64,000 nucleotides of DNA, from positions 1-64,000 of the forward strand of contig JBODTK010000125.1 of assembly GCA_050613775.1 (NCBI GenBank). The letters run 5' to 3'. The stretch comes from Neocallimastix sp. 'constans'. Taxonomy: Eukaryota. The translations under genes and the position numbers were made by a program. This document shows positions 208 to 56,904 of the stretch, piece by piece. The first letter of the stretch is position 1. Each line of letters starts with the position of its first letter. The notes beneath the pieces were generated by a model. It worked only from the letters and a program-made list of their open reading frames with translations, did not search any database and was not told the DNA's origin.

Positions 208-4346
<4,139 letters not shown>

Positions 4347-12998: not shown

Positions 12999-13029
<31 letters not shown>

Positions 13030-18241: not shown

Positions 18242-18653
18242 TTTTTTTTTTTTTTAGACTGAGATTAACAAGAGGGGAGGACAATAGGGCGTCTAATTTC
18301 TCCCTTAAATGTATCAAATTCTTATTGGATTCTTTAACATATTGTTTCGACGTCGACGAGGACCTCCTCTCTCTAAACAAGGCTAATACAAAAGACATTC
18401 CCTATGCGCCGCTTTATACGACGGGCTTCTTTTCAGTGATCTCTAAAACTAACATCAAGGCAGAAACAACTACGCCAATCCTCTCAAAACTGGAACACTT
18501 ACCATGGAGAGCTAACGCCAACTTCATTAATAAAGAAAAATACCCTAAGAAAATGAAAATTACCCAATATAAATTCAAAAGGTAGTCGCGGGGAAGATTC
18601 AGAAACTTTATCTGCGTTAGCCTATAGTACTAACAAACAAGTGGAATGACCGA
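18242..18653 (-). mobile_element. SINE-like retroposed element, copy 1 (degenerate head)
   Basis: GC-richer ~400 bp island; minus strand ends TCAGTCT+poly(A); flanked by direct repeat TATGAATAAAA (18229-18239 and 18654-18664); shares ordered blocks with the element at 37084-37517. Confidence 0.7.
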
Positions 18654-18948
18654 TATGAATAAAAATATATTTATTGAATATATTTTTATTCATATGTTAA
18701 ATTTATTTATTTATTTTTTATTCATTCATTCATTTATTTGTTTATTTATTCATTTATTTATTACTTCTTATTTTTTAATTATTATTTATTATTTATTAAT
18801 TTATTAACTTATTTATTATTATGAAAATTTATTTCTTATCTGCTCATAAAATTATTATTATTTTATTTATATATTATTATCATTATTATTATTTATTTTT
18901 ACTTTTTTTTCATTTATTCTTTTTTAAATATAAATAATTATAATTTAA

Positions 18949-19929
18949 CTACATAGTTTGAAGTGCCATGATACCCTTCTCAAATCCACTTTTTAATGAA
19001 TTTAATGTTTTTTCACGTTTTTTAACATATTCTATTTCATCTAAACAAGTTTGATAATGCTGTTTTAGCATGTTAACAATATAATTTTTATTATTAGCAT
19101 TCTTTTTATAGGCATTATAATCAAAAATTGTTGATTCATTTTCAGTTTCACTATTACTACCACTACCTGCAGAAACTGGTAATGGTTTTAATGTACCCTT
19201 TGATTGCGTTTTAGCGTTTGCAACTAAATTTGGATTAGATGTAGATGCGGATGGGGATATTGGAGGATAGGAACTATTCTTTTCATTATAAATAAGACCT
19301 GATTCTGGATTTTCAAAAATTGATGTTAATGGTTTACCAACAGAAGAAGGATTATCTTTATAAATTTTCTTAATAGTCATAGAAGAAGTTAAATTACCAG
19401 AAGTAAGAATTTCATTCTTCTGATTAATTACATTCTGCATTTCTGATGATTTTTCTTCTTGTTTTGATTCATTTACATAGTCTTCTTCATCTTTTAATTT
19501 TGGACTTTCATATAATTTTTGACTGTCCGATATTATATTTAGATTTTCTTGGTCATCATTACTTGAATTAGTATTAATATTTTTACCATTTTTAGGACTA
19601 TTACTATTACTATTACTATTACTACTTGAACTATAATCTTTACTATCCTTAGTATCAAATGATCCATTACCAATATTAATAAGCGGTAAAACAGATGAAG
19701 TAATAGAAGAATCTTCTCTTTTATTTAAAGGAACTGTTAATAAAGTTTTTTTCTTTTTTTTAATATTATTTGTAGTAGAGCTCTCATCATGTAATGGAAT
19801 TAAATATTTACCTTTAATACTATCTTTATTATTATTATTGATACTATTACTTTTATTTTTGTTTTTATTATTGTTATTAGTGCTATTACTATTATAATTA
19901 TTATTATTATTGATGCTATTACTTTTATA

Positions 19930-19983
<54 letters not shown>

Positions 19984-22132
19984 TGTGTTATTATTGCTTT
20001 TATTATCATTATTATCACTATCATCACTATTTTTATTATCTTTTCTTTTATTCTTTATATTTTTTCCAAATATATTTTTATTATCTTGATGATTATCGCT
20101 ATTATTGGAGCCTAAATTTTTATTTTTTTTATTTAATCTAGAAAATTTATTAACACCAGCACCTGATAAGAATAATCCCATATTAAAGAATCTTTTTTTA
20201 TGTTTTTTTGCAACATCTTTAGTTGCAGCACTTCTGGTGTCATGAATAATTAATGTAATCATTTTAGTAGTAATAACAATTGATGGAAGAGAATATAAAA
20301 TTGGTGTTGCCTATTATTTTATTTAAAAATTAAAATATACTTAATATATTTACATATATTATTTTTATTTACTGCTTTAATGTCTGTTAATTATACTTAC
20401 ACCAAATGCAACAGTTGCCATGATTTTTGCGAAATACTGTTTTTTATTTATTATATAAATAAAATTTTAATATAAATATACATATAATAATATACCTAAA
20501 AAAATAATACAATTTTACTAACAGTATTAGGACTTTGGTCACCAAAACCTAATGTGGTCATTGTCATAAATGTATACCAAAAAGCATCAAGATTGGATTG
20601 TCTAATTTATTTTCAATGCATAATAAATTTTATAAATATTACATTTTATTATAAAAAAAAAAAAAAAAAAAAAAAAGATCTATAAAATAATAATAAATTA
20701 ACATACAATTCACAGGATAAACTATTTTCATTAATTGTTCCATTTTTATATTGACGTTTCCAATTCTATTGTTTTAAAAAAAATTTTTTTTTTAAATAAC
20801 AAATGCAATTTAATAATAATATATATATTATAATTATTAAAATTAATATTTACATAATTATATATAATTATTTTAAACAAATAAAAACAAATAAAATTAA
20901 TATAATTTTTTATAATTATATATATATATATATATATATATTAATTTTCATACTTGTGAAGCTTCATCCAATGTACATTTTGATAAATCTGCATAAAAAA
21001 TAACTCTTGAACAAAATATCATGACAATAAAATAAAGAATAATAACAGATATAATTTCATAAATTGAATCCTTAGTAGCTCTAATAATAATATGAAAGAA
21101 TTTAGAAATACGATTTCTTAAATAATAAAAAATACTTAAACAAGTATAAAGACGACAACACATTAAGAGAAACGATATCAATCCATAATGATTTATATTA
21201 ATTAGACGACATTGTGGGAAAAATTCCTCAATAATAAAAGGAAGGCATCCCAAGAATTCCATTATATGAGGAATATTAATAAAGCCTTTGTAAAGCTTAA
21301 ATAAATTTTTAGTTACTTTAACATCTTTGTAATTAACAATTACATTTTTACCATCTTTCTGATTACCTCTTATAGTTGCTTCCAACATTGCCAAATGACG
21401 TCTTTTACGTATAGGGTATAAAATAACATCTGCAAGAAAATAAAGAGATAACTGTATGAAGAATACTAATGAAACTATACGCCATGCCTTTCTTTCTGAT
21501 TCTGTATCTTGTGTCTTAAGTTGTGTTGAATAGCATTCCAAAAAAAATGAAAGATATAAAATAATAGCATGATATATATTAAAAACAGTAGCCAACCAAG
21601 ATTCACGTGGACTATATATTGCATCAGTAAAAGCATGATTAAACATTTTTGATATATGATATTGAAGATTGGTAGGCTCATCCATATCTCTCGCTAAGGT
21701 TGGTTGACTCTTGCTCATACCACCACTTTTTAATGGTGTATGGTCATCTGATTTTAATGGAATTGTTTTATGTTGTAAATGACTTGTTTTAGTATCAATA
21801 GATAAATAATCAAAACTTTTTGTAAAATTATTACTTTTATCTGGTAATCTTAATACCGAATTCTTCCTACTTTTAAAATTATTTGATTGTTCTATAGCTT
21901 TTGTTTTTGCTTCTAATTTTGGGTCAATAAATAAATTTTTTAATTTTGTAATATCACTTTCTTCTTTTGATTCCTTATGACTTTCTTCAGTTAACTTGTT
22001 TAATGTATAATTATCAAATGAAGTAGTTGTAAGTTCAATTTTTGGTATATTAAATTTTTTACTAAATTCTTCCTGTGCCTTTAAGGCATCAGTATCTTCT
22101 TCCATTTTACCTTTTATATTTGAATCTGACAT
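18949..22132 (-). CDS. 6TM Kv-type cation channel paralog A (filter TTLGFGD)
   Basis: Exons 22132-20954, 20765-20707, 20601-20523, ~20436-20401, 20310-18949. Pore exon reads QSNLDAFWYTFMTMTTLGFGDQSPNT; S6 reads YFAKIMATVAFGATPILYSLPSIV. Confidence 0.9.
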
Positions 22133-25100
22133 TTTTTCTATTTTCTTTTTATTAATTATTATTAATTATTTTTATTAAATTTGCTCAAAGTTAATAACTT
22201 TTTTTTTCATAATTATATATATATATTATATATATATATATAATTACTATAATATTGTATATCCGCTGAAAATATTTTTTAATTATATATATAAATATAT
22301 ATAGTTTTATTATATTATACTATAATTAAGTTTTCTAGATTTTATAAAATTTTAAAAAAATTTATAGTATTTCTATTTTTCACCTATATTTCCAAGTTAT
22401 ATTGTTATATACAAAGGATAAATATATTATTAATTTTGTCAATAATTATCTTTTTTTTTAAAAAAAAAATAAAAAATAAATATATTTTATTCTGTTTCTT
22501 AATATTTTGTTTACCTTTTATAAATATATAAACTTATAAAATATAATATATCAATTATTATTTATCAGATATATATTATATATTTTTATATTCTATCATA
22601 AATGTGTATCCATAAATTTATTATATATATGATAATTTATAAAGGTTTCTTTAATGTATAATTTTATTTTTTTTTACGTTATATCTTTTAAATTATCTTT
22701 TCATTCAAAAAAAAAAAAGTTTTTAATACATATTTATATATAAAATAATAATAAGTGAATTTCTAAATATAAACTTCAATCCTGATTAAAATTAAATTTC
22801 AATTAAATACTTCAACTGATAAATTTTAATATATAAAATACATAAAATATTAAATATAAATATTTCTAAATGTAATTATATATAAAGTTTTTTTTTTATT
22901 TATTTATTTATTACTGTTATTATTATTATTATTATTTATCAAAAAAATAATATTTTATATATTATTTTTCAAAATTAATAATTTTTTTTAAATAAAAAAA
23001 AATATAAAAATAATAATAAAAAAAATTAAAATAAAATAAAATAAAAATATGAAAATTTACTTTAACAATATTTATTATATAATATTCATATATTGGGATT
23101 TTATATAATTTTGTATTATAATAAGTTTTATTGACAAAAAAAAATTTTTTTTTATTATTTAATAATTTTTTTTATTATTATAATATTTATTTTTTTTTTT
23201 TTTTTTATTTTTTGTAATTAATTTTATATTTATATTTGATGTATTCAATATATAAATAAATTTACTATTATAATAAAATATCAATTAAAAAATAATAATT
23301 AATAAATAATTATAAATATAAAAAAAAAATAATTATTAAAAAAAAAATTAGATTTTATAAATAATGGGAAAAAGAAAATATAAAATATTATATATATAAA
23401 AAAAAAAAAAAAAAAAAAAAAGATAAATTATTTAATATTCATCTAATTTCTGTATAAATTTTTAAATTTATGATATGGTCAATTAGCATTTTATATTAAA
23501 AACTTTACTTTATTATTATTAAGGTTTATGTTATAATATTATAATATATTAATGTGAATTTACATATATAGGATAAAAATTTTTATTTTTATTTAAAAAA
23601 ACTATTATGAAAAAGAATTTGAATATTTTGTTTTTGTTTTTTTGTTTTTTTATTTTTTTTGTTTTTTATTTTGTTTTTTAATTTAATTATATAGTATTCA
23701 ATAAAAGTTAATGGATTATAATTAAAATAAATATTAACTATAAAATTATAATTATTATAAAATAAAAAACTTTAAATTCTGGTTTTATCATTAACAGATA
23801 ATTAATGATTTTATCTGAATTATTTTTTTATAAAAATATATTAAAGTAACCAACAAGTTTAAATTAATCTATAATTATTTAATTAAAAAATATATTTTAT
23901 AATTATATTATTAATATAACTCAATATATATTTATGTATATGTATTATTAATTGATTATATGCATAATTTATTTAATATATAGTTTTTTTTTTTCAAATG
24001 AATAAATTTTATAAAATCTTTTAAGTTCATCATTTTTGTAAAACATTTAAATTTGATGAATAAAGCCACAAAACCAAATATTTAAAAAATTAATATAAAT
24101 TTTTTATAAAAAGATATATATAATAATATATTATAAATATTATATATACTTATAATAATATAATAATAGTATAAAAGAACAAAAGTCATTTCATTTTTCT
24201 TTTTACTAATAAAGTATATCTTTAAAAAAAAAATATTATCGAAATTAAAAAGTATAAAAAATATATACTATACAATAGATGGATAAATATGTATGCACAT
24301 ATTTTTATGTTATTTAATAATTAGTTAAAAATAAAAAAAATTAGATAATAGCACAAATTGATAAAATATTTAAAAATTATACTTTTAAAAAATATAACGT
24401 AATTTAATAATATATATATTATTTTGTTTCTTTTCGAAATACAAATTAATAAAATAAATAAAAAAAAAAAAAAAGGAAGTAAAGAAAAAAGAAAAAGAAA
24501 AATAAAGAATTAGAAAAAAAATAAAAATAAGAAAATAATAAAATTAAAATACAATAAAATAATAATAAATATTATTAATTAATTAATTAAAATAAATTAT
24601 AGAAATATATGTAAAATAAAAAAAAAATAAAAGAAATCTAATTCTAAAAATATAAATGATATTTTGAATAAATTTTATATACCGAAATTTTTATATACCA
24701 AATAAAAAAAAAAGTAAATATAATATTAATAAACAATTTTATATTTATATATTTATATATCTTTATATATATATATAACATATAAAGATTAATGATAAAC
24801 TTTTATTGTTTATCATTAATATATATGTTTGTTTTTTTATTGTAATTTAAATAATGTTAAAAATATAAATTTCAAATATATTTATATTAATTAAAATACT
24901 AATATATTATTATATGTTTGTTAATATAAATTACCATAAAGCAGTATATATTATTTAAACATTTTTATTAACAATAAACGAGATAAACCATTAAAATAAA
25001 AAATAAAATAAAATAAAAAAAAAAGTATAATTATGTTATTTATTTTTTAATTTGTAACCGAAATTATATCTTATAAATACAATAAAACAAAACACATAAT

Positions 25101-25191
25101 AAAAAAAAAAAAAAAAAAAAAAGTAGTTAAAAATAAATAATTTAACAATTAATTATTTAATACATAAACTATTAATTTATTATAAGACAAA

Positions 25192-26629
25192 ATGTATTCA
25201 CAAGCATATCAAGAGAAATATGTTAATGCAGCGAAAATGCTTGCACTTCAACATAATAATAGTCAACAAGGAATAAAAACAAAGCCAATTCGTAGTAGAA
25301 GTGGATATGGATTTGACGGCAGAATTAGAAATAAAAAATATGATAATCTTTTTGATAGTAAATTTGCAAAATATGTAAAGCATTACATGGAAACAGTTGT
25401 TATGCTATCAGTTTTGGCATTTAACTTTCAAACTTTACCAATATTACGTAGAACAAAGATCGCACGTGACATATGGCAATGGTTAGAAATATTTTTCACC
25501 ATAAATTATATTATAGATTGGATTATACAACTTTATTTCTATCCATATTATACAGATGATTCAAAATTAAAGAAAAAGAAAAAGGTACCACCAACCAAAA
25601 AGCAATGGGCTTACAAAGGTTATTTTGAAAGAATTAGTACATATATTAATTTACTTTGTTGTATTCCATTATTTTTAGAATTTATTTTTCCAAGCATAAA
25701 ATTTGACAATTTTGAAAAGGCATATTCAAATTCATGGATTATTTTAGTATTTCGTTCATTCCGTGCTATCAGATTCTTCCAAAATTTATATACTTCTCGT
25801 ACTACTTCAGGAAAGATGATGAATTATGTAATTTTATCATTAAAAATGGCATATCCTGGTATTATTTCATTTATTATGATTGTTGCAGTTGTTTTTCTTT
25901 GCTTTGCTGGAATTTATTATTATATTGAAATTACATATTGTGAACTTAACGAAAATAATGTAATATATTTAGTATTCATAATAATTATTATATAGAAGTT
26001 AAATGATTTTTATTTAATCAATCAATATTGCTAATAATGATAATAATAATAATAAATAGGAATGGATCTTTAAAGAGGATGGATTTGATTTAAAAGTTTA
26101 TAAAGGTGATGCTTGTTCAGTGTAAGTATTATTTAATTACTATTATAAAAAAAAAAAAAAAAATAGTAAAAAATAAATAAAAATAAAATAAAATAAAATA
26201 AAAAAAGAAAAAATCAACACAATATATATATATATTATCAATTAAATTATAAATAATATTACTATTAATAATGCTATAATATAAAGTCAAAGTATTATAG
26301 ATTCTTTATGGTATACTCTCATTGCACTTTCTACTATCGGATATGGTGATTATATTCCATTTTCGGTAAGTCATTAATATTTATAAATTTTATATGAAAT
26401 ATATAATATTTATTTTATAACGTCAATAAATATTTATATTTGAATATTCGAATACATAGGCTCTGGGCAGAGTAGCAACATCAATTGCTGTTATGGTAAA
26501 TATACATATTATAATACATTTTAAAAATATTGTGAATTTTATTTTTGCAATAATAATAATAATAATATAAAATACCTTATATTTATATATATATATATTA
26601 TAATTATTTAAAATATAATATATAAATAT

Positions 26630-26674
<45 letters not shown>

Positions 26675-26977
26675 TATGTCTATTTATTTTTGCATTACCA
26701 ACTATTTCTATAAGTACATTTTTATCAAAACTTTTAATTGAAATTTATAATACTACCTCAATCTCAAAGGTTACAGAAAAATTGAATGAATTAACAATAA
26801 GTCATAGAAAGCAAGATATGACAATTTTAAATAATTTATATACCATTAAATCGGGAATTAAAACAAATAATCCAGTAACATTATTTGAAATTTTTAATAA
26901 TGATGCCACTGATAATACTAAACCAAAATTAGAAAAACGTCGTTCATTAAATCAGTATATTAAAGAAACAATGAAAA

Positions 26978-27036
<59 letters not shown>

Positions 27037-27822
27037 CCAACATCTTCAACAAATGGTAATAAAAATGCTATAATGAATGAAAATACAATTAATAGTAATA
27101 AAATATTACAAGTAGAACTACCTAATAATGTAGCCAAATTCCCAAATTTAGAAAGTATTATTGTAGGTAATTACGATGAAAATATCTATACCATACAATC
27201 TGTTGGAGAAGATAGTACTACACATACCCCAAATGTTAATTTATCAACAATGTTTAATGCCACAACAAATTTAAAATCAAATAATCCAGATATTTCTGTA
27301 TCTAGTCCAAATTCAACAAATAATACACATACAATTTTTGATCCAAAAACGCTTAAATTGGATGAAATGGACTTTGATGATAATGAAGATGATGAAGATG
27401 ATGATGAATCCCTTTCAGAATCAGATGATGATGATTCTGAAAGTGATGATGATATTTCCATTCAAGGTAATGTCAAACAATTAAGTCAAAAACATCAAGT
27501 TTCTACAAATGCGAATAATCTTCCAAAATCATTTGAAATTAATGCTAAATCAAATGAAAAATACTATCAACAAAATGATAATATTGTTAAGCCAACAATG
27601 AATGACATAAATGAAGAAAGTGAAGAAGCCATGAATTCGGACGATATGTATTTCTCTGTAGATATGTTTGAAAAAATTATGATTAATTATAAAAATATAT
27701 GTCGTGATGAAATTGAACAATTAGCAAATCGTTATAAAAATGTTCCAAAAGTTAAAGAAAAGTATGAAGAAGCTGCTATTTTTCAAGAATTATTTGATAA
27801 GGATATTTTAAAAAATAAATAG
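25192..27822 (+). CDS. 6TM Kv-type cation channel paralog B (filter STIGYGD)
   Basis: Exons 25192-25959, 26060-26121, 26287-26365, 26460-26495, 26674-27822. S4 VFRSFRAIRFFQ; pore QSIIDSLWYTLIALSTIGYGDYIPFS; S6 ALGRVATSIAVMICLFIFALPTI. Confidence 0.92.
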
Positions 27823-27947
27823 AATAGATAAATTAAACATAAATAATAAAAAATATAAATATAAACAATATAAACAATATAAAAAATATAAAAAATAAAT
27901 AAAAAATAAAAAAATAAAATAAAATAAAATTTAATAATTAAATCAAT

Positions 27948-27991
<44 letters not shown>

Positions 27992-28884
27992 TATAATTAA
28001 ATAAATTTTAGTTATTTTTTTTTTTTTTTTTTTTTTTTTCTTTGTCTATTTATTTATTTGAACCCCTAGGCATTTTATTTTTAAATTATAGTGTAAAAAT
28101 AAATTAAAAAAATTTCTTTTTTTTAATAGAAGAGTATATAATAATAAATAATGATTTATTAGTTACTAAATAATTAAAAAAAAATAAAAAATAAAAAATA
28201 ACAATAAAATAAAGAAAAATAATAATAGTAAGCAATAATTTAATAATAGCACTTTTTTTTTTTTTTTTTTTTTTTTTTCTTGTCAAATAAATAATAAAAT
28301 ATTATCAAATCGAAAAAATAATTATATGGTTTAATTAATTAATTATTTATTTATTTATATAATTATTTATTTTCTTTGATTTTTTTTTTTCCTTTTTTTT
28401 TTTTAGCTATTTATTATTTAATTCTAAATTTTCATGAATTATAATTGCATTAAAATATAGAAACATAAAAATAATAAATTATTATATATATATATATATA
28501 TATAATTTTTAATGTTAATAGATTGATAAATTGAAAGATAGATAGATAGATAGAAAATTAAAAAAAAAAAATGGTTAACTCTGATAGATATTTAAATTGT
28601 TTTATGTTGTTAGATCTACTATTTTTAAAATAAATTTATATTTTCATAATAGAAATTAAAAATTAATAATATAAATAAATAAATATATATGAAAAATAAT
28701 TTTATTTTATAAATTAGTAACAGTCAAAAAGTATAAAAAAAAAAAAAAAAAGAAAAATAAAACAAAATAAAATAAAATAAAATAATAAATAATAAATAAT
28801 AAATAATAATAACAAATAAATAAAAATTAAAATAAAAATTATTATTATTATTATTATTACTATTATTATTATTATTATTATTAT

Positions 28885-28926
<42 letters not shown>

Positions 28927-28938
28927 AATTTTAATATA

Positions 28939-29425
28939 TTAACGAATTGATTTTTTTTTTCTATGACTTATTGTATTAACCAAATTAATTGTTTTATCTA
29001 AACCATTCATTAAAAGATATAAGGTACCCGATTGTTCATCAACATCTGCAATTTCATTATCACAAAAAGCGTAATATTCCATGGATAATTTATAAAGTTC
29101 CTTACTAATTTCACTAACAGTCATATATTTAACTTCACCCATATTCATATCAACTTCAATCTTTCCTTGACTATTCTTACGGCTATGTCCAAAATTAGGA
29201 GATAAAGAATAAGGATTTAATTTACTTTTATCTTCACTAGCTTTCATATCTTTAAAAGTTACCGTTGACTTATTTAGGTTCTTTTGATCTTGAATAACTT
29301 TATTTAATTCTTCAATCTCTGGACCTTTATTCTTCATTAATTGTTTAGAGAGAGCATACTTTATAGTTGTTGTTGAATCTGATAATAATTCATTACTACT
29401 AATATTTTTGTTATTATCATTACTT

Positions 29426-29477
<52 letters not shown>

Positions 29478-31149
29478 CTTTAAATAAAGTTTTTATATTA
29501 ACAGGATCATTTCGTGAATTTGGTAAATGGGTTAATCCTGTATGACCACCAGGTCCAGTATTTATTGAATAATACTTCAAAAATGTATTAGTACTATTTG
29601 AAAAAGCTCTTGTAGATATAATATCCTTTAATTCCTTTTTAACTCTTTTTTTACGTGCTTTTTCTATCTTCTTTTCACATTCTTTAACAGCATTTTCAAT
29701 AGTTTCATTTTTTTTTAGTTGAACCAAAAATTCCATAAATTCAATGGTTAAGATGGAACTTGGAATTGGGAAAATCATAATTGCAAATATAATTGTAAAT
29801 CCAACAACAATTTTACCTTGAGCTGTTATTGGAGTAGTATCACCATAACCAATACAGGCAGTGGTTACTGCACCCCACCAATAGGAATCAATAATTGAAT
29901 TACTAAAATATAAAATATAAAACCAAATTATTAATTTAAATAATATTAATAAATTATCAATAAAAATAATGAATTAATATAAATATATAAATCATAATTG
30001 GAATTAGTACTTACACAAGACACTCCTCAGTTTTATTATTAACAACTCTAAAATATTTCTTTTAATAATAAAATTATTAAATAATTATAATTATTTATTT
30101 TATTAGAAATATTAAATAATTTATTATAACTATTTAAAATATCAATAATAATAATAATAATAATATATACATTTATATATTATATTTACCTCGGTTGTTG
30201 AGTCAAATTCACAATCATATGTTTCTGCAAAGAAAAAAAAAGCACTGAAAAACATCATAGTCCATAAAACTAAAATAGTTACTGTAAAAAAACCATCAAT
30301 AGAATTACTTAATACTTTAATTACTGATGACATTTGAATAATTTTCACAAAACGAGTATTATAAAAATAATAAATAAAACGAAAAATACGGGTATATCTT
30401 ATAGCAGTTGGTATCCAATTAATATAAGAACTATAAGTAAGACTTAATTTTGGAAAAATTAATTCAATAAAATATGGTGTTATACCTATATACAATTTAA
30501 TTTGAAATCAAAAAAAAAAAAAAAAAAAAAAAAAAAGTATCAATAATAAAATAATAATTTGATATTAATAATAAATTTAATTTAAAATTATAATAACATT
30601 ACATACAAAATAAAATATTGTATATATAATCCTTTATCTTTTTAAAACAAAAAAACAATATTTTAATAATGAATACTTACTTATTAAATTATTAATTTCA
30701 ATTTTACTTTTAAAAAACCTAAAATAATGAGTTATAGATGAAGTAAGTATTTCACGTTGTCTTATTGAATGACCTTTTCGTGAACCATCACTCATTGCAA
30801 TGTAAGAATAGTCGATATCACTATTTAAATTTTTATGAAAATATACATCAAATTCCTTTTCACGTCCATTTATTGTAATACTGAAAAAAGTGTATAAAAT
30901 GTAGCGTAATAATAAATCAATCCCTAAGTAAACAGTAATAACAATTTCTACAATTTCTAAAATATCTTCTTCTTTTTTATCTGAATGATATTGTGGTAAA
31001 GTAGAAACGTATAATGCATAAATAGCAGCAATGATGAAGAAAAAATTTATATAATTTATTACATTTAAAAATTTGTTTGTTGAACATAAATCATCATTAT
31101 ACAATTTTTGAATTGCTTTATCTATAAAAGATTTCTTTTTTGATGGCAT
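28939..31149 (-). CDS. 6TM Kv-type cation channel paralog C (filter ACIGYGD)
   Basis: Exons 31149-30681, 30485-30190, 30058-30015, 29902-28939. S4 AIRYTRIFRFIY; pore/S6 NSIIDSYWWGAVTTACIGYGDTTPITAQGKIVVGFTIIFAIMIFPIPSS. Confidence 0.92.
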
Positions 31150-31910
31150 TTTCTCTACTATATCTTTAACATTGAATATATACTCTATACTTTTAAATTT
31201 TTTTTTTTTTTTTTTTTATTTATCTATTTATTTATTTTTTACTTTTTGTTTTTTGTTTTTCGTTTTGAATTTTTAATATTTTATTATTATTATTATTATT
31301 GTTGTTTCATTTGATTAATCAAATAAATTTCAAAGATTTCCTAATATATTAAAAATAATATTAATATTAATTACATATTTAAATAAATATATTCAAAGAA
31401 AATATAAAAAAGTTTTTTATAACAATTAAAAATATATCTATAATAATTAAAAATTTTAATATTTATGAACTATAGTTTTCTATTTTATTTTGTTTTGTTT
31501 TTTGTTTTTTCTTTTAATTTTTTTTTTTTTTTTTTTTTTTTTTACCTTCTTTAAATTTGTTTAAAATAGGTTAATCTTCTAAATTAATTATCAAAATATA
31601 ATTAACAATTAATTTTTTAATTTTACTATTATATGTAAAATATATAAATTTTTATTTATATATTTTTTCTAATTAGATTTTTATTTTATTTTTCTTTAAA
31701 TTTCCCAATTTTTTTTTTTTGTTTGTTTGTTTGTGTGTTCTTTCTTTATTTCCTTTTTATTGATTTATATATTATATTATATTATATTTATTTATTTATT
31801 TAATAATTTATTTATTTTTATTATATTATTTTTTTATATAACATAAAAGTTGGAGTAAAAACAAATAAAAAAAATATTTAATAGGAATATTATTAAATTA
31901 TATTAATTAA

Positions 31911-31960
<50 letters not shown>

Positions 31961-32856
31961 TTTTTTATTCATTTATTTATATATTTTCTATTTATTTATT
32001 TATTTATATTATTATCAAAAATTTATTTACATAAACTATATATTTAATAATAATACTTTAAAAATATAATAAAATTTCGAATTACTGTATATTTTAATTA
32101 TATTGCATTATTAATTAATTTATTTAAATAGTAAAGTAATCAATTATTTTATAAAATGCATATAATAAAGTTTTCTTCATATATTAAATACTAATTATAT
32201 ATTATAATATATTATTAATATATAAAATTAAATTAAATCTATTTAAAAAATTTTAAATAAAAAATACACAAAAAAAATTAACTACAGTTTTATATAAAAC
32301 TGTAATTATATTAAATTACATTATCAATAAATTAAGATTACAATGTAATATATTATCCAAAATATTTTTTTTAATTTAAAAAAATTATCAATCTAAATAA
32401 ATATAAATTATAATAAATAATTAATTTATACTATAAAATTTTAGTGTTGTGGCTTGTTTGATTATGTACGATTATTTTAAAGATATAGAACTTGTTCATA
32501 ATGAGTTTTTATTAATTTATTAAAAAAAAAACATTTATACATAATAGAATATATTTTATTTATATTATTTAAATTTTATTAAATAAATAATTTCCCATAT
32601 AAAAAAAAAAACTATTGTGAATTAATTATTGCTATTGTAAATGGTGTTTGATGATTATTTTAATTTAGATAATAATTTCTTAATGAAAGCAAAAAAAAAT
32701 TAAATAAAAAAAAAGATTATTTAATTTAAACTTCTTTATTATATAAATTACTAAGTAATTATTATAATAAAAACGTTATTAATATTTAATAATAAATATT
32801 AATATAATCATTTTTTTTAAATATATATATACTAATTTATTTATTAATTAGTTTTG

Positions 32857-35440
32857 TTATACATTTTGGTTTGCCTTAATTTTACGAATCTGGTTAATAC
32901 TTTTTTCGAAGTACTTCATTAAAAGATATAATGTTCCTGATTGTTCATCAACCTCTGAAAATTCATTTTCACATTGGGCATAATAGTCCATTGATAATTT
33001 ATATAATTCTTTACTGATCTCTCTTACAGTCATATACTTAACTTCACCTAATTTAAATTCAACTTCAATTTCCCCTTTATCATTTTTTCGATTTTTTACA
33101 GTAGAATCAGTAGAATTATATGAATCTCCACTTCCTTTTCCTTCCATTCCAAAAGGTCTTGAATATTTTGGTTGCGATTTTGTTGTTATTTTATTTAGAT
33201 ATTGTTGATTTTTAATAATTTTATTAAGTTTTAACATATCTGGATTCGTACTTTTTAGATTCATTAATTTATTTCCTAATCCATATTTAATAGTTGTTGT
33301 AGGATCATCCAATAAAATTTCACTTGATTTAAGAATTTTACCATTATTCATATTTGTATTATTATCATTACTAAAAATCTTCGAATTTATAGGTTTTAAA
33401 TATTCACTAAGTGAATTTGATTTTTGTTTTTGACTGTCATTAAGGGAGTTTGATTTTTTAGATTTTTGATTGTCATTAAGAGAGTTTGATTTTTTTTGTT
33501 TTTGACTATCATTAAGAGAGTTTGATTTCTTAGATTTTTGATTATCATTAAGAGAGCCTTTATCTAATGAATAACCCAATGAATTATTACTTTTTTTTAT
33601 TTTAAAAAAATCAATAATATTAGTCGGTTCATTTCTATTTAAACTTTTATTTGAATTACCGATGGAAGAATTTACACTATTATAAAGAGAATCATGTATA
33701 TTATAATATTTTATAAATGTATTGCCATTATTTTGAAGATTTTCAGATGATATAATATTAATAAATTCTTTTTTAAAATTCTTTTTTTTTGCTTTTTCTA
33801 TTTTATTTTCACATTCAATTACCGCCTTGTCTATGATATCATTTTTTCTCTTTTTCATAATTAAATCCAAAAATTCTATTGTTAAAATTGCATTTGGAAT
33901 TGAAAAAATCATATTAGCAATTAATACAATACATCCATTAACTATTTTTCCTTGGAAGGTTGCAGGAGTCAGATCACCATACCCTATACACTGAATAGTA
34001 ACTACTGCCCACCAATATGAGTCAATAATTGAATTACTTTTGTTGTTGTTGTTGTTGTTATTTTATAATAATATTATTATAATTAAATTTTGAATTTTTT
34101 GAAAATAATTTTTATATTTATAATTTTATATATTTATAATTTTATATATTTATAGATATATATAAGCAATATTTATAAATAATTATTATAATTTATAATA
34201 TGTATTAGTATTTTTATTTTAGTATCAAATAATTAAATTTAATGCTTAAAAAAAAGAAATATTAAAAAAAATACACTCGACACTCTTCAAGTTCATTTTG
34301 GCTGTTATATCTATAATATTTCTATTTAATAATTATTGATATATTATTTAAAATATATATTAAAATAAAATATAAAATTAGGAATTTATATATAAAAACA
34401 ATAAGAAGGTAAATAAGTATATAAAATAATTATCATATAACTATAAATGAATAATACTTCTGTTTGAGTATCAAATTCACAGTCATATGTTTCGGCAAAG
34501 AAAAAATATCCAGAAAAAAAGATTATACCCCACACAGATAACATAATTGTAGATATAATGCCTTCCTTTGAATTTTTAAATACTTGTAATAACATATCTA
34601 ATTTTAAAAATTTTGAAAACCTTGAGTGAATTATATAATAACCAAAACGTATTAACCGAGTATACTGTAAAACAGAAATTATAATACTAAGCTTTGAATT
34701 ATTATATATTTCACTTTGACTTTTATTAATAATCATTCTAGCAAATAACGGGGTAATATCTAATATTTATATATTAAGAGTCATTTAAATATATATATAA
34801 ATATATATACAATTATAATAAAAATTGATTATAAATCAAGTATAAAAATAAATTTTTATTTTATATATATAATATGTTTTAAATAATTATTCATTTCTAT
34901 ATTAGTATATAGTATATATTAATCAGTATTTAATCATAATAAAAATATAATATAATTACTTAACAAGCATATAATCTCCATTTTATTTAAAAAAAACTTA
35001 ATCAAATGTAACAAGGTTTTCTTTTTTTTTTTCTCTTTTTTAGTATTATGTTTATTAATGACATTTTTTATTGTAATAATTCTATATTGTCTTTCACTCA
35101 AATTTAAAAATGAAGCTTTTTCATTATAGAATTCATCCATTCGATTATAAGTAGTTATATCAAAAAATGTATATAAAAAATATCTAATTGAAATTTCAAG
35201 TATATAATATATTGTAATTAAGTATTCAATAATTGTGTATTTTACTTCTTGATTCTCTCGAAAACTTGGAATTGAAAATGCATAAAAAATATATGAGGCT
35301 ATTAATGTCACAAAAAAATTTATAAAATTTACTAAATTTAGTATGTAATTTTGTGAGCATAACTGACTATCATATAAAAGTACTGTTAAGACATTTATAG
35401 TTTGTTTAGCTATATTAACATCATTATTTTTTGATGACAT
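32857..35440 (-). CDS. 6TM Kv-type cation channel paralog D (filter QCIGYGD)
   Basis: Exons 35440-34960, 34759-34458, 34321-34275, 34036-32857. S4 VLQYTRLIRFGY; pore/S6 NSIIDSYWWAVVTIQCIGYGDLTPATFQGKIVNGCIVLIANMIFSIPNA. Closest paralog of C (shared FFFAETYDCEFD and GEVKYMTV.EISKELYKLSM). Confidence 0.92.
33406..33557 (-). repeat. Coding 36-bp tandem repeat (about 4 x SLND[N/S]QK[S/Q]KKSN) in channel D C-terminus
   Basis: ORF 32857-33912 translation shows SLNDNQKSKKSN-SLNDSQKQKKSN-SLNDNQKSKKSN-SLNDSQKQKSN-SL. Confidence 0.9.
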
Positions 35441-35547
35441 CTTTTATAATTAACAAATAGTAATGCTTGTATATATTTTACAACGATTTGATTTAAATTA
35501 TATTTTATAGGAATTCCTATATTTAAAGTGAAATGCATAAATTTAAG

Positions 35548-35583
<36 letters not shown>

Positions 35584-35964
35584 CATTGACTAATTTATTA
35601 CTACTATATAGATATATATTGATAAATGATATATTTATTGTATTTAAATCAATTATATATAAATTCTATAAATAATTGATTTTGAAGAGCAATATTAATT
35701 ATTGAATCATACAAATTAATATTTATGTCATGTTAAATAATTAATTATTTAATCAAATTGTATCTTCTATTGGATTAATTGCTTTTCCAATTATATTTTT
35801 TTTTACGATTGTTCAAATAATTCAAATAATTCCCTTTGAATATTTAAAAGTCAATCCATATTATTAAATATTATATATATTATCCAGATAAAAAAAAATA
35901 ATAAAAATAAAAATAAAACAAAAAAAAAAAAATAAAAAATAAATAAATAAAATAACACAAAAAT

Positions 35965-35999
<35 letters not shown>

Positions 36000-37083
36000 T
36001 TAAAATAAAATTCAAAGTCTGTAATAAATATATAATAAAGTTTTCAATAAAATAAAATTATAAAAATAATAAAGTTAATATCTACTATAAAAAAAAGAAA
36101 AAACTCACCCATAATTAAAATCAATTTTAAATATTATAATAATTTTTAAAAAGGGAAAAATTTTTTATATAAGTAAACTTTATATTTTTTTATATTTTCA
36201 TATGTTAATTTTTATAAATTTAAAGAATTATGAATAATAAATAAAACTAAAGAGAAATAAAACAGCAAAAGTAAAATTTACTAATAATAAAACGAAAACT
36301 AATATATACATTAAATTTTAATATTGTTTTTATTAAAACTTTATATTAAAAACCATCATTATATATTATATTTAAATAATGATAATCTTAGAATATAATA
36401 GTTATTTATATTATTTAACTTTGAGCTGTTTTTACTCAATTACTTTATATATATTAAATTAATATTTAAATTTCATCTTTGTATTAAAACAAATGGTCAA
36501 AACTGCTGTGATTTTATCAACAAACAATGCATAAATATCGACAAATATATGCAAATCATACCTATTATTGTTCAAGGCATTCCATAACCACAACAATTAT
36601 TATTAATATTATTATTATAAACAAAATTTAATTAATAATAAAGAAATTTTTATATATTATTTTATTCTATTGGTAATTATAAAAATTATATTTATCTTTT
36701 TTATATTTTTAAAAATTAATAATTTTCTTTTTTTTTAATATTAATATATTTTTATGGAAAAATAAATAATAAATATAAAAGAAAAACTGATGATGATAAT
36801 AATAAAAAATAATAAATAAATAAAAATAATTTCAATTCATTATTATTTATTATTTATCATAAAAATTATAATATATAAAATTATATATGTATTTTTAAAT
36901 TCAGTTATATTTTATAAATATATCATTTTGTATATAATGATATATTATCATAATAAATATAAAAAAAATAAAATACAATGAAAAAAAATAATTTAGAAAA
37001 TTCTCAAATTATTATATTTATACAAATATTTTGGATTATTACTTTATTATTATATACTTAATACTAATTTTTTTTATTATAAA

Positions 37084-37517
37084 TTTTTTTTTTTTTTTTT
37101 TTTTTATAGACTGAAGACTTTGGTCTTCCCCATATAGTAATATGGGTGTATGATTAACTGCCATACCGGTACGGCGTCGACGCTCTCAACTCCCCATAAG
37201 CAAAGAAACTCCATATAGAAGCACCCTACGCGATCCTCGAGGGAAAGCAGAGCCAACTATAGGTGGCGTCCTTGCCATCCCAGAGGAGCTGGACACTGTA
37301 AATCCTCTCAGACAAGGCTTACGCAATGGGATTCTAATAGTGTTAGAAATATAGAAAACTTAGAAAGTATACCTACCTGAGTATCGTTTAACCCCTAACC
37401 TTTCACGCAAAACCCAAAGGGAAAAATCGTGAAGATATGATACTTGTGGGGGTCGATCCAGAGACCTTTGGTATGATAAGCCAACGACTTAACAACCCAG
37501 GATAAGAACTGGATGAC
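37084..37517 (-). mobile_element. tRNA-derived SINE-like element, copy 2
   Basis: Minus-strand head TTGGC-TTATCAT-ACCAA-AGGTC-TCTGG-ATCGACC has tRNA anticodon-arm/variable-loop/T-arm spacing with a B-box-like GGATCGACC (37451-37459). 3' hairpin GAAGAC-CAAA-GTCTTC, then AGTCTAT+A22. 14-bp TSD TTTTTTATTATAAA at 37070-37083 and 37518-37531. Confidence 0.82.
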
Positions 37518-37652
37518 TTTTTTATTATAAAAATTACAGAAAAAATGTTTCAAAATAAGCAATACAAACATTTTATTTCATTTTATTTACTTATTTTATT
37601 TATTTGTTTATTTTATTTATTTATTATTTATTTATTTATTATTTATTTATTT

Positions 37653-37684
<32 letters not shown>

Positions 37685-38536
37685 TTTTATTTATTTATTA
37701 TTTATTTGTTTGTTTATTTATTATTTATTATTTATTTATTTGTTTGTTTGTTTACTTATTATTTATTATTTATTATTTATTTGTTTGTTTACTTATTATT
37801 TATTATTTATTATATTTATGTGTTATTTATTTATTTATTTATTTATTATTCTATTATTATATTATTATATTTTGTTCATTTATATATTTATTTATCTATC
37901 TATTTATTTATTTATTTAAAAATTAGTTTTACAAATAAATTTATCTTTATATTAATTGTATTACCAATATACATAATTAAATAAATATTAAATAAATTTA
38001 ATATATTAATATATAAACATATATGAAATATTTCAATAATACAAAAAAAAAATAAAATAAAATTATAATTTTATAATAAGTTTTTTTTTCAAAAATTAAA
38101 AAAAAAAAAAATAATAAAAAAATAAAGTTAAAAAAAAACATAAATAAAATTATCAAAGCAAAGCATTAATATAATTTAAAATAGCAAATTTGATAGAATT
38201 AATGATTTTATTAAATAGGTTTAAAAAATATAATACTAGTATTTATGTTGGTTGTATATAACATTGAATTTTGTGATTAATTCCACATTTTTTTTTAACG
38301 AAGATTAATTAATAAACGAATATATATTTATATTCTTAATTAATTTTATTAATCCCCTATCAATTCAGATTTTTATATACAATCTATTAAACATACTAAG
38401 TTTTCTTCTTTATATAAATATAAATAATTATTTATTATAAATATAAAGCATAATAATACAATAGTACAATAACAACAATATTAATAATAAGATAATATAC
38501 AGTAAAAAAAAAAAATAAAAAAAAAAAAAAAAAAAA

Positions 38537-40020
38537 ATGAAAAATAATAAAGAACCCTTAAATGATATAAAAAAGCCAGTAACTCCACATCAATCCCATT
38601 TACCAAATTTTCAAGATTTACCAAATATTCCAATATATACTGGAACTTTTAATCAAGAATTAATTTTTCAAAATGTTAATGATTTAACCTCATCTAATAA
38701 TAATAATTTAAAAACTCAAACGTATGCTAGTTCGTCAACTTTAAATTTAAAAGATGAAAATATTTATCGTAATAAACGAAATATGTTAAAATCTACAGAT
38801 AGTCTTTTTAATAGTAATGTTAGTTTAAATTCACCTGCAAGACTTGGTGGTAGTAAATTATATTTACCAGGTAGTTCATATAATATGAATGGTAGTCGAA
38901 TGTTAGGACCAGGAGCTATTAGTTTAAATACTCTTAATATTGGAGCAAATGAAAATGATTTTTATAATGATGATTTAGATAATGAAAATTATTCATTTAT
39001 ACATCTTCTTAAAACTCAATTTTTCAAAATTGCAAGAAATCCAGAAAATTCAACCATTGCCACCTTCATGAATTATCTTATAACATTTGACCTTATTTTT
39101 CTTATTATTGCTAATTTATTATATTCAGAATTAATATGGAATCATACGAAAAGACAAGAAAGAAATTGGCACATCGTACTTTTTATTCTTAATGCATTTT
39201 TAACAATAGAATGGATTTATAACTTAATTTGTCATCCTCTTCAATTAGAATACAAACAAAAAAAAGAAAAAGAAAGAGAAAAGGAAAAGGAAAAAAATAA
39301 AGATAAAAATAAGAAAGGAAAAAAAGGAAAGGATGATGATTATTTCTTTTATTCAACTTATACTGATAAAAAAACTAAAAAGAAAAGATTTTACCATGAC
39401 TGGAAAGTTTATAAATTTATTGCACGTTATAAAGGTTATTTCAAATGGAAAGGAACAATTAATTTATTAGGTAAAAAATTTACTAAATTAAAACATTAAA
39501 GGTATATGTTATATAAGTACTAATTTAATATATTAATTATGATGATAATAATAAAATAGGTATTTTAGCATTTTATATTGAATTCTTTTTTCCAGAAACA
39601 CGTTTTCGTGGAAATAAGGTTTTATATTGGATACCAACCATCTTAAGTGAATTCCTTATTATTCGTTTATTCTTAAGAATTGTACATATGAAAAACGGTT
39701 TTGCTAAGCATTTTAATATTGTTGTTAATTGTTTAAGAGATAATAGTAAATTTTTATTCAATGTTTATACTATATTTTATTTGGGTGTATTAGTTATGTC
39801 ACCAATCTATTATCATAGTGAAATTTTTGGTTCTAAATTTGATCCAAAACAAGAAGTAAAAAATAATATATAAATATTTATATAATACATAAAATAAAAT
39901 AAAATATTTTTTTTTTTTTATTAATTCTAATAATATTTTATACAATTATTAATTTTTAAAGAAATGGATTTCAGTAGATTCTATGGGAGAAGAAAAAGAA
40001 GCATCTGTGTATGTTTTTTT

Positions 40021-40053
<33 letters not shown>

Positions 40054-40580
40054 AAATATTTTATATTGTATATTATTAAATTCTAGAATAATGTTAAATT
40101 AATAAAATTTAAAAAAAAAAATTTTTTTTCCTATTTTTTAAATTAATTAATTTGAAATAATTTTTAAAATAATAGGCATTCTATCGTTGAATCGTCTTGG
40201 TGGGCAGCGGTTACTATGGTTTGTATAGGTTATGGTGATTACTATCCATTCACGGTATATATTACATTTTAATAAAATATATAAATAATTTGAAATTCAA
40301 AAACTTTTAATAATTCTATAATATAAATGTAATATTAAATACTAAATAATAATATCGTCATTTAAAATAATATGTAGGTGCAAGGAAAAATAGTTGCTTT
40401 CTTTGGTATTATGGTAAATAATAAATATTTTTATATATTTGATTTTTATCAAATGAAAGAGTATAAAGAATTAAAAAAAAAAATAAAATAAAATAAAATA
40501 AAATAAAAGAGTTTCTTATTGAAAATAAAAAAATAAAGTTTATTAAAAACTAATTTATTTATTTATTTATTTATTTATTT

Positions 40581-40676
<96 letters not shown>

Positions 40677-41362
40677 TATTAATTATAATTGCAATATTTA
40701 TTATTTAGTTTTCTATGTTCTTATTCTTAATTCCAAACGCTATTTTATATGCTACATTTGCGGATGATTTCTCTAAAGCTAATCGTGATGAAGCAATTAA
40801 AAATGCAATTGATGAAAGTAATAAACGTTATAGAAAAAGACAAAAAAAAATGTTTAAAAAAAGAAGAGAATCAACTTTTCTTTCAAGTCCTTCGTCATTC
40901 AGACCAAGAAGAGATGAAGATATTGATAATCTTTATACTATACCAAAGAAGGCAAGTGCAGATGATCATGAAGGTCTTCCAGAAATTCTCTATATGATCA
41001 AAAATAATATTAAGAATGAAGAAACTACTATTGAAGATATTAGTGATAACGAAGAGGAGGTTCATATTTTAAAAGATAAAGATGAAGTTGAAAGTTTGAG
41101 TAGTCTTGATAGTGATGATAAATCAAGAAAAGAAAGTCATTCAAATCTTCAAACCACAACAGAAGAAACTAACACTATTAGAGAAATTAATAGTGAAAAA
41201 TTAGAGGAATTCTATGATAATAAAGAAGACATTATCAATGAAATGATGGATTATTGTGAAATATGTGATAAAGAACTTGTTAAAACTTCACAAAAATTAT
41301 ACACATTAACTAAGATGAAAAAATATTATGAAATTTTGATAAAAGAATATTCTGAAGTATAA
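38537..41362 (+). CDS. 6TM Kv-type cation channel paralog E (filter VCIGYGD)
   Basis: Exons 38537-39470, 39560-39855, 39962-40008, 40176-40254, 40378-40413, 40709-41362. Pore HSIVESSWWAAVTMVCIGYGDYYPFT; S6 VQGKIVAFFGIMFSMFLFLIPNA; S4 WIPTILSEFLIIRLFLR. Confidence 0.92.
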
Positions 41363-47321: not shown

Positions 47322-47751
47322 TTGACTATACAATTTTGTTAATTATTATTATTTATATAATTGGTTATTTTTATTCTTTTTGTATGTGATTTGTTAAAAT
47401 ATATTATATTTTTAATCCTAATATATGGCATAATACTTATTCTTTGTTTAATTAAATTTTTTAATTTATTTTTTTTTAAATTCTATGTATATAAAATTAT
47501 ATCAAAAAAATATTTTTAAAAAAAAAAAAATTAAAAATAATATAAATTTTATGTACAATTATGAAATAATTAATTATAAATAAATATAATTGACTTACTA
47601 AGAAAAATATTGTTAATAATAAAACGAATAAAAAATATATTAATAATACATTTAAAAGAGAACAAAAAGAAAAAGGCAATATATATATTCAAGAAATATT
47701 ATTATATATTTTAGGAATAAATATTATATATTCAGTAAAAAATATATATAT

Positions 47752-48423
47752 ATGGATTCAAAACTTTTCATTCAAGCATTTTCAAAATTTGCTATTGGTG
47801 TTTTATTAGTTGCTGCTTTAATTTTCATACCAGCATGGAGTGTTTTATACTGGCAAGGTTGGCTCTTTATGGGATTATTATTTCTTCCAATGTTTTTAGT
47901 TGGTGTAGTAATGTTGTTTAAGTCACCTGGCCTTCTAAGAAAAAGGTTAAATAATAAAGAGACGGAAGAGGAGCAAAAAGTAGTTGTTATTTTTAGTGTA
48001 ATAATATTCGTTTCAACTTTTATTGTAGCTGGATTAAATTTTAAATTTAAATGGATTGTGTTACCTGACATTGTATCTTACATTGCATCCTTTATATTTT
48101 TAATAGGTTATGTATTATATGCCGAAGTTTTACGGGAAAATACCTTTCTTTCAAGAACTATTGAAGTACAGGAAAATCAACAAGTTATTGATACGGGTCT
48201 CTATGGTTTAGTTCGTCACCCAATGTATATGAGTACCTTATTTCTATTTTTATCCATTCCACTGATTTTAGGTTCACTTTTTTCATTTATTATTATGTTG
48301 ACATACATTCCTATTATTATAAAACGCATAAGAAATGAAGAAAAAGTACTAGCCGAAAGCCTTGATGGCTATACGGAATATATGAAACGTATAAAATATA
48401 GAATTATTCCTTATGTATGGTAA
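47752..48423 (+). CDS. Isoprenylcysteine carboxyl methyltransferase (ICMT/Ste14/PEMT) family membrane protein, bacterial-type, intronless
   Basis: Multi-TM 223-aa ORF with ENTFLSRTIEVQENQQVIDTGLYGLVRHPMY and RIRNEEKVL..LDGYTEYMKRIKYRIIPYVW family motifs. Confidence 0.9.
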   Translation: MDSKLFIQAFSKFAIGVLLVAALIFIPAWSVLYWQGWLFMGLLFLPMFLVGVVMLFKSPGLLRKRLNNKETEEEQKVVVIFSVIIFVSTFIVAGLNFKFKWIVLPDIVSYIASFIFLIGYVLYAEVLRENTFLSRTIEVQENQQVIDTGLYGLVRHPMYMSTLFLFLSIPLILGSLFSFIIMLTYIPIIIKRIRNEEKVLAESLDGYTEYMKRIKYRIIPYVW

Positions 48424-56882: not shown

Positions 56883-56904
56883 TTTTTATTTTTCTTTTTC
56901 TTTT

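What the first reader, a model, noticed from the sequence alone, without database searches (positions are those of the whole stretch)
18949..41362. Cluster of five divergent Kv-type channel genes: candidate heteromeric fungal cation channel
Seen: five consecutive 6TM channel genes (orientation -,+,-,-,+) with no other gene between them. They are highly diverged yet all have intact reading frames. None shows a recognisable T1/BTB or cyclic-nucleotide-binding domain. Known: Kv-fold channels are tetramers, and some assemble from distinct paralogs (CatSper1-4, silent Kv subunits, CNG). Inference: a fixed, ancient five-gene set with complementary filter and sensor changes looks like subunits of a heteromeric channel. 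If the host is a gut fungus, a role in flagellated zoospore motility or chemotaxis is plausible.
Basis: partly seen in the sequence, partly recalled or inferred. Interest (0 to 1): 0.88.

Follow-up and report, generated by a model that had tools for sequence, protein, structure and literature searches.

The report
Five-gene fungal potassium channel subunit cluster
A rumen-type gut fungus keeps five very different potassium-channel genes side by side, in an order also seen in related genera; they likely build one mixed channel from four different subunits, which would be an unusual design for a potassium channel.

Summary
Five intact, spliced 6TM K+-channel genes (G1-G5; -,+,-,-,+) lie in a Neocallimastix-type genome. 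They share intron positions and have no T1, CNBD or KCNQ domain. They form five orthogroups (within 65-100%, between 17-32% core identity; G3/G4 42-56%), and consecutive accessions show the same order in Piromyces, partly in Anaeromyces, and in a second Neocallimastix copy. New here: there are four deep lineages (G1, G2, G5, G3/G4), laid out as two head-to-head pairs plus a tandem duplicate. Each has its own fixed changes in sensor, filter and gate. All end in a strongly conserved coiled-coil helix. A complex prediction of the G1+G2+G5+G3 helices passed (0.65, best control 0.25; mark reached by 51 of 78 solved and 2 of 108 mismatched pairs) as an antiparallel four-helix bundle. No homotetramer control was run. 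Best reading (0.55): subunits of a heteromeric Shaker-like K+ channel, most simply G1:G2:G5:(G3 or G4). Five genes cannot fill one tetramer. Ion selectivity, the zoospore role and presence outside gut fungi remain untested.

The parts
18949..22132 (-). G1, 904 aa; exons 22132-20954, 20765-20707, 20601-20523, 20436-20401, 20310-18949. Filter TLGFG, one S4 Arg, gate PSIVIT.
25192..27822 (+). G2, 697 aa; exons 25192-25959, 26060-26121, 26287-26365, 26460-26495, 26674-27822. Filter TIGYG, three S4 Arg, gate PTISIS; the most canonical subunit.
28939..31149 (-). G3, 590 aa; exons 31149-30681, 30485-30190, 30058-30015, 29902-28939. Filter CIGYG, three S4 Arg, gate PSSILT.
   Evidence: spliced ortholog L002
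32857..35440 (-). G4, 669 aa; exons 35440-34960, 34759-34458, 34321-34275, 34036-32857. Filter CIGYG, two S4 Arg; younger, faster-evolving sister of G3.
38537..41362 (+). G5, 681 aa; exons 38537-39470, 39560-39855, 39962-40008, 40176-40254, 40378-40413, 40709-41362. Filter CIGYG; one Arg at the aligned sensor positions plus a Glu and an off-register Arg in S4; Tyr at gate position 6; lacks both turret cysteines.
18952..19101 (-). G1 C-terminal coiled-coil helix (stretch used in the complex job)
27649..27807 (+). G2 C-terminal coiled-coil helix (stretch used in the complex job)
28954..29118 (-). G3 C-terminal coiled-coil helix with acidic patch (scored partner in the complex job)
32860..33027 (-). 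G4 C-terminal coiled-coil helix with acidic patch (not in the complex job)
41210..41359 (+). G5 C-terminal coiled-coil helix (stretch used in the complex job)
22133..25191 (.). Shared upstream region of head-to-head pair G1/G2 (3059 bases between start codons)
   Evidence: a shared promoter is inferred, not shown
35441..38536 (.). Shared upstream region of head-to-head pair G4/G5 (3096 bases); holds the GC-richer island near 37100-37520

Best explanation
These five genes encode Shaker-like potassium-channel subunits without a T1 domain that likely assemble into mixed tetramers, most simply G1, G2 and G5 with either G3 or G4, held together by a predicted four-helix bundle of their C-terminal coiled coils. 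Shown: intact spliced genes, origin by duplication, four deep lineages, conserved order, fixed subunit-specific residues, and strong constraint on the terminal helix. Predicted: the four helices form an antiparallel bundle with G3 between G2 and G5 and G1 diagonal. Inferred: the bundle replaces T1 as the subunit sorter; G2 and G3/G4 supply most of the voltage sensing; G1 and G5 have weak or dead sensors and tune the pore; G3 and G4 are alternative occupants of one seat; the channel sits in the plasma membrane and passes K+, perhaps less selectively because some subunits carry Cys at the inner filter site.
For: (1) Tree: five orthogroups; G1, G2, G5 100/100, G3+G4 99.5/99. Paralog distances are 2.75-3.48 against ortholog distances of 0.23-0.52. 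(2) Order kept: P. finnis ORX49301 G5, 02 G4, 04 G2, 05 G1; Piromyces E2 OUM62559 G1, 62 G4, 63 G5; A. robustus ORX76375 G3, 76 G4; second Neocallimastix copy G1-G4 consecutive in three annotations, then ZPR1. (3) No subunit is canonical: all keep only the first Pro of the PVPVIV gate, with polar residues at position 2 and polar or aromatic at 6, and G5 has Tyr at 6 in 12 of 12. PMC6279357 (section 14) reports gate degeneration in 42 of 43 animal regulatory subunits and non-conducting channels with an aromatic at position 6. (4) The terminal helix matches orthologs at 26-36 of 36 residues in 18 comparisons; dN/dS about 0.04 there, 0.08 in pore-S6 and 0.23 overall, for one G3 pair. (5) Complex model of four helices: 0.65 against best control 0.25; mark reached by 51 of 78 solved and 2 of 108 mismatched pairs (eukaryotes 39 of 65 and 2 of 126); runs agree in at least 92% of contacts; partner pLDDT at least 78. 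(6) In the modelled registers G3-G3, G3-G4 and G4-G4 are the most repulsive pairings (+6.0 to +7.6, crude charge count). (7) Precedent: three choanoflagellate Shaker channels conduct only as heteromers (PMC11287247, results part 1).
Against: No homotetramer or two-subunit control was folded. The tool warns that a pass does not tell which family member binds, that the job was unlike its calibration and that the alignments were not used; the pass may reflect likeness to solved four-helix bundles. The same charge count favours G5-G5 (-5.6, -0.7) and G2-G5 (-8.8, -6.6 in one register), scores G3 with its modelled neighbours near zero, and gives no discrimination in a parallel register. Loss of the second gate Pro may be ancestral outside animals: PMC3410928 notes only the P405-equivalent Pro in fungal Kv homologues. 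Tandem duplication alone explains clustering, and background synteny among gut fungi was not measured. No shared upstream motif stood clearly above shuffles (1 of 4 word classes marginally). Co-expression in one cell is not shown. G1, G2 and G5 were not retrieved under an A. robustus name, nor G3 under Pecoramyces.
Confidence: 0.55

Rival explanations
1. The five are independent, mostly homomeric channels that diversified after tandem duplication (different stage, organelle or gating). The terminal helix makes each assemble with itself, and the cluster persists through ordinary microsynteny.
For: G2 and G3 keep three S4 arginines and G2 a TIGYG filter. Paralog-specific coiled coils can enforce self-assembly (general principle in PMC2654082 passages). 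G5-G5 is not disfavoured by charge. The ZPR1 flank is also conserved in the second Neocallimastix copy, so linkage is not special to the channels there.
Against: G5 has an aromatic at gate position 6 and G1 and G5 lack most sensor charges and the outer S2 glutamate. G3/G4 self-pairing is repulsive in the modelled registers. Replacing G2 by an unrelated chain dropped the model score from 0.65 to 0.25.
Confidence: 0.25
2. One principal subunit (G2, or G2 with G3) forms the channel, and the others are optional 'silent' modulators entering at 3:1 or 2:2, as Kv6-9 do with Kv2.
For: G2 is the most canonical (three Arg, aromatic at the S2 charge-transfer position in 12 of 12, TIGYG). G5's gate resembles the Kv6-9 signature. 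G2-G5 is the best charge pairing in one register.
Against: G2's own gate is polar at positions 2, 4 and 6, and G2-G2 is repulsive in the other antiparallel register (+5.8) and in the parallel count (+3.7). This rival is heteromeric too and differs from the best reading only in stoichiometry.
Confidence: 0.15
3. Some paralogs no longer conduct ions and act as sensors or scaffolds.
For: Degenerate S4 in G1 and G5, and no glycine seven residues before the gate proline in any of the five.
Against: The GYGD/GFGD filter is invariant in 57 of 57 rows selected for having it (partly circular), and pore-S6 identity to orthologs is 44-58 of 60.
Confidence: 0.05

Closest known systems
T1-less Shaker-like Kv channels of choanoflagellates and fungi (PMC11287247, PMC3410928, PMC7576140)
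   Same: 6TM core, K+ filter, best solved relatives Kv1.3, Kv2.1 and Kv4.2, no T1
   Different: Five-gene conserved cluster, Cys filter in three of five, degenerate S4 in two, distal coiled coil. Placement among fungal Kv-like clades was not tested.
Silent or regulatory Kv subunits (Kv5-9 with Kv2; cnidarian regulators; PMC6279357)
   Same: Degenerate S6 gate keeping only the first Pro; aromatic at position 6 in G5
   Different: No T1, and no partner with an intact gate among the five
Rod CNG channel (3:1 ratio set by a C-terminal coiled coil; PMC3265371 abstract)
   Same: A C-terminal coiled coil as likely stoichiometry device
   Different: No cyclic-nucleotide-binding domain; modelled bundle is four different chains, antiparallel, not a parallel homotrimer
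TRPM7 antiparallel tetrameric coiled coil (PMC2654082 passages)
   Same: Antiparallel four-helix assembly domain on a tetrameric 6TM channel
   Different: TRPM7's is a homotetramer and the channel is not a Kv
CatSper1-4 (recalled; no call)
   Same: Four distinct 6TM paralogs, one of each per channel, as proposed here
   Different: CatSper has an acidic Ca2+ filter and many auxiliary subunits; these have GYG/GFG filters
HCN channels (CIGYG filter; PMC2766643 abstract, PMC7576140 passages)
   Same: Same five filter residues in G3, G4 and G5
   Different: No CNBD and a short S4; both papers say selectivity does not follow from this motif alone

Membership tests
Animal Shaker family (Kv1-4) | N-terminal T1 assembly domain | tested here: not met
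   No BTB/T1 family in 34 members; no such fold in the G5 and G4 models, whose N-termini are low confidence
Animal Shaker family (Kv1-4) | PVPVIV-type S6 gate | tested here: not met
   Only the first Pro is kept in all five
Shaker-like Kv (T1-less, as defined in PMC11287247) | S1-S6 core with highest similarity to Shaker-family channels | tested here: met
   Profile against PDB: Kv1.3 E 1.2e-24, Kv2.1 1.8e-24, KCNQ1 7.9e-16; Foldseek top hits Kv4.2 and Kv1.2-2.1. PDB comparison, not reciprocal BLAST against animals.
Shaker-like Kv (T1-less, as defined in PMC11287247) | Canonical K+ selectivity filter | tested here: inconclusive
   TxG(Y/F)G in G1 and G2; CxGYG in G3, G4 and G5
Shaker-like Kv (T1-less, as defined in PMC11287247) | Voltage gating and K+ selectivity | not testable with these tools
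   Needs electrophysiology; aligned S4 Arg counts are 1, 3, 3, 2, 1
Regulatory (silent) Kv subunit | Degenerate S6 gate | tested here: met
   may be ancestral outside animals
Regulatory (silent) Kv subunit | No functional homotetramer | not testable with these tools
   Needs expression
CNBD channels (HCN, CNG, EAG) | C-linker and cyclic-nucleotide-binding domain | tested here: not met
   No cNMP-binding family in 34 members
KCNQ/Kv7 | KCNQ C-terminal domain (PF03520) | tested here: not met
   Not listed for 34 members; present in the KCNQ2 hits
CatSper | Acidic Ca2+-selective filter (recalled) | tested here: not met
   GYG/GFG filter in all five
Known fungal Kv-like subfamilies (PMC7576140) | Phylogenetic placement in either clade | not tested
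   No non-gut-fungal fungal sequence was retrieved

The most novel reading that the evidence does not exclude
A potassium channel built obligately from four different pore subunits, a 'CatSper logic' K+ channel. Its order is dictated by an antiparallel hetero four-helix bundle, it is encoded as two head-to-head gene pairs kept together for perhaps hundreds of millions of years, G3 and G4 switch between two versions, and it sets the membrane potential of swimming gut-fungal zoospores.
Probability: 0.25. Interest if true: 0.88.

Novelty: new variant of a known kind. Interest (0 to 1): 0.64.

Why it matters
Heteromeric Kv channels known to me use two subunit types sorted by T1 (recalled; examples). 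A T1-less Kv with four fixed seats would show a separate route to strict heteromers and give a natural mixed Thr/Cys filter and mixed live/dead voltage sensors to study. It names exact genes and combinations to express, which matters because single-gene expression would likely fail. It also offers an entry to electrical signalling in rumen fungi.

Tried and rejected
No whole genome was held, so synteny rests on accession order, not on DNA, and orientation in other genomes is unchecked. Read laying returned nothing, so there is no read-level check of introns or expression. The deep profile search of representative proteins never ran (queue full or no answer), so the range outside gut fungi is open. 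Word-based searches found only gut-fungal members plus three KCNQ2 rows and one EF-hand channel (45 hits, 16, 7); this is weak evidence of absence. ESM Atlas: G5 gave generic eukaryotic ion-channel clusters at 0.90 or less; its terminal helix gave no usable hit. The metagenome scan gave 2 short loci and no cluster DNA. AlphaFold monomers were low confidence overall (pTM 0.32 and 0.27), usable only for helix layout; the G4 job folded a public model that lacks part of S1. A recalled X-box motif gave 6 matches against 9.4 expected. Shared upstream words were not convincing. Rfam: nothing in the window or the two islands. Earlier findings: none. The first IQ-TREE run did not finish and was replaced by FastTree (supports may be displaced by rerooting) and a 17-row IQ-TREE. 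Deep nodes are weak: G1+G2 78/77, G5+G3+G4 61/70. Rejected: pseudogenes (open frames, purifying selection), a strain-specific expansion (orthologs across genera), and membership of CatSper, HCN or KCNQ.

Full report
Setting. The window is about 16% G+C with GT-AG introns. Identical or near-identical proteins carry Neocallimastix names, so the host is an anaerobic gut fungus of that genus. One of those assemblies may be the window's own source and is not counted as independent.

Observation. Five exon models translate cleanly (904, 697, 590, 669 and 681 aa; 19 of 19 introns GT-AG). Two intron positions, in the turret and before the pore helix, are shared by all five; two more by G1, G2 and G5; one in S3 by G3, G4 and G5. 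This shows common descent by duplication. Spliced transcripts exist for each orthogroup: proteins that cross the junctions lie on contigs only slightly longer than their coding sequence (G1 P0052 on 2872 bases, G2 P0083 on 2192, G3 P0073 on 1743, G4 P0095 on 1457 (partial), G5 P0064 on 2207), and L002 is an uninterrupted 590-codon G3 ortholog. Pfam finds ion-transport families and no T1, CNBD or KCNQ domain in 34 members. The closest solved relatives are Kv1.3, Kv2.1 and Kv4.2. The layout is two head-to-head pairs, G1/G2 and G4/G5, each about 3.1 kb apart at the start codons, with G3 in tandem behind G4.

Conservation. All 45 hits fall to one of G1-G5. The tree used stored proteins P0001-P0096 of at least 430 aa that contain the filter motif, deduplicated, plus the window models: 57 rows and 4 outgroups. 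It gives five orthogroups: within-group core identity 65-100%, between-group 17-32%, G3/G4 42-56%. A 17-row IQ-TREE supports each group (98-100) and G3+G4 (99.5/99); deeper nodes are weak. Accession order: P. finnis G5, G4, one unseen number, G2, G1; Piromyces E2 G1, two unseen, G4, G5; A. robustus G3, G4; first Neocallimastix copy G1, two unseen, G4, one unseen, G5 in one annotation and G4/G5 adjacent in two others; second copy G1, G2, G3, G4, then one or two unseen numbers and ZPR1 in three annotations. Piromyces is dated 55-41 Mya (PMC10293281, passages). Paralog distances (2.75-3.48) are roughly 7 to 15 times the window-to-Piromyces ortholog distances (0.23-0.42), so the duplications are far older, unless rates jumped after duplication.

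Anatomy. Arginines at the aligned S4 positions: G2 three (13 of 13), G3 three (11 of 11), G4 two (6 of 6), G1 one (12 of 12), G5 one, with Glu in 11 of 12 and a further off-register Arg. G1 and G5 lack the outer S2 glutamate; only G2 and G4 keep an aromatic at the charge-transfer position (residue roles recalled from Kv1.2). The filter is Thr-type in G1 and G2 and Cys-type in G3, G4 and G5, invariant in each group. The Cys form matches HCN, but selectivity cannot be read from it (PMC2766643 abstract; PMC7576140 passages). The S6 gate keeps only its first proline in all five. A cysteine pair in the turret is invariant in G1-G4 and both are lost in G5, which suggests a disulfide and an extracellular or luminal face.

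Assembly domain. After a low-complexity linker every subunit ends in a heptad helix with invariant Cys and Glu, modelled as a long helix in G5 and G4. It is about as conserved as the pore. ESMFold2 on the helices of G1, G2, G5 and G3 (partner G3; G4 left out; alignments not used) scored 0.65 against a best control of 0.25. The mark was reached by 51 of 78 solved and 2 of 108 mismatched pairs; the eukaryote counts are 39 of 65 and 2 of 126; runs agree in at least 92% of contacts and partner pLDDT is at least 78. The listed contacts run antiparallel between G3 and G5 and between G3 and G2, and G1 touches G3 with two residues, as a diagonal helix would. An antiparallel tetrameric coiled coil is known from TRPM7 (PMC2654082, passages) and a coiled coil sets CNG stoichiometry (PMC3265371, abstract). 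The model supports binding; it does not show it, and it cannot rank heteromer over homomer. G3 and G4 carry a conserved acidic patch (net -5 or -6 in 17 of 17 rows) that repels itself in the modelled registers but not in a parallel one; G5-G5 and G2-G5 are not disfavoured.

Mechanism. Four deep lineages match four seats in a tetramer, no subunit has a standard gate, and a constrained paralog-specific bundle offers the sorting device that T1 gives animal Kv channels. I therefore favour heteromeric assembly, most simply G1:G2:G5:(G3 or G4), at 0.55, with a principal-plus-silent arrangement at 0.15 and independent homomers at 0.25. Function as a plasma-membrane, depolarisation-gated K+ channel is inferred from family membership. 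A zoospore role is plausible but has no evidence here.

Literature. Seen: PMC11287247 (passages, results part 1 of 3), PMC6279357 (passages, section 14), PMC3410928 (abstract, section 5), PMC7576140 (passages, section 7), PMC5168858, PMC2654082 and PMC10293281 (passages), PMC2766643 and PMC3265371 (abstracts). Fungal Kv-like genes are known, and PMC5168858 mentions voltage-gated potassium channels in gut fungi once. The listings showed no title or abstract start describing this cluster; the library is open-access only, and I opened no supplements, which for PMC5168858 and PMC7576140 may list these genes.

Verdict. A real, conserved and probably undescribed arrangement: a new variant of the T1-less Shaker-like Kv channels, with a specific, testable heteromer model. 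Interest 0.64.

Noticed in passing
window ~18245-18665 and ~37100-37520: Two GC-richer islands (peaks 46% and 56% against 16%) that share only a short terminus next to a poly(A) run on the minus strand; likely truncated retroposed insertions. No Rfam hit.
   Followed up: partly
window 44269-45639 +: Intronless ZPR1 gene flanking G5; also follows the cluster in the second Neocallimastix copy.
   Followed up: yes
window 47656-48423 +: Intronless PEMT/ICMT-like membrane methyltransferase ORF; looks bacterial by style, a possible horizontal transfer.
   Followed up: no
window 54429-56885 -: Intronless 817-aa ORF with no Pfam hit; its N-terminus recalls a VWA-type motif (recalled, untested).
   Followed up: no
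window 61469-62170 -: LURP-one-related (LOR) gene.
   Followed up: no
window 416-3855 - and 8531-14592 -: Spliced genes that recall UTP14 and a CLASP/TOG protein (labels recalled, not searched).
   Followed up: no
P0002, P0003, P0048: Public gene models drop part of S1 in G4 and the S2 region in G5 relative to orthologs; probably mis-spliced models.
   Followed up: partly
window 33420-33550 -: Short peptide repeat (about four units) in the G4 linker, absent from Piromyces and Anaeromyces orthologs.
   Followed up: no
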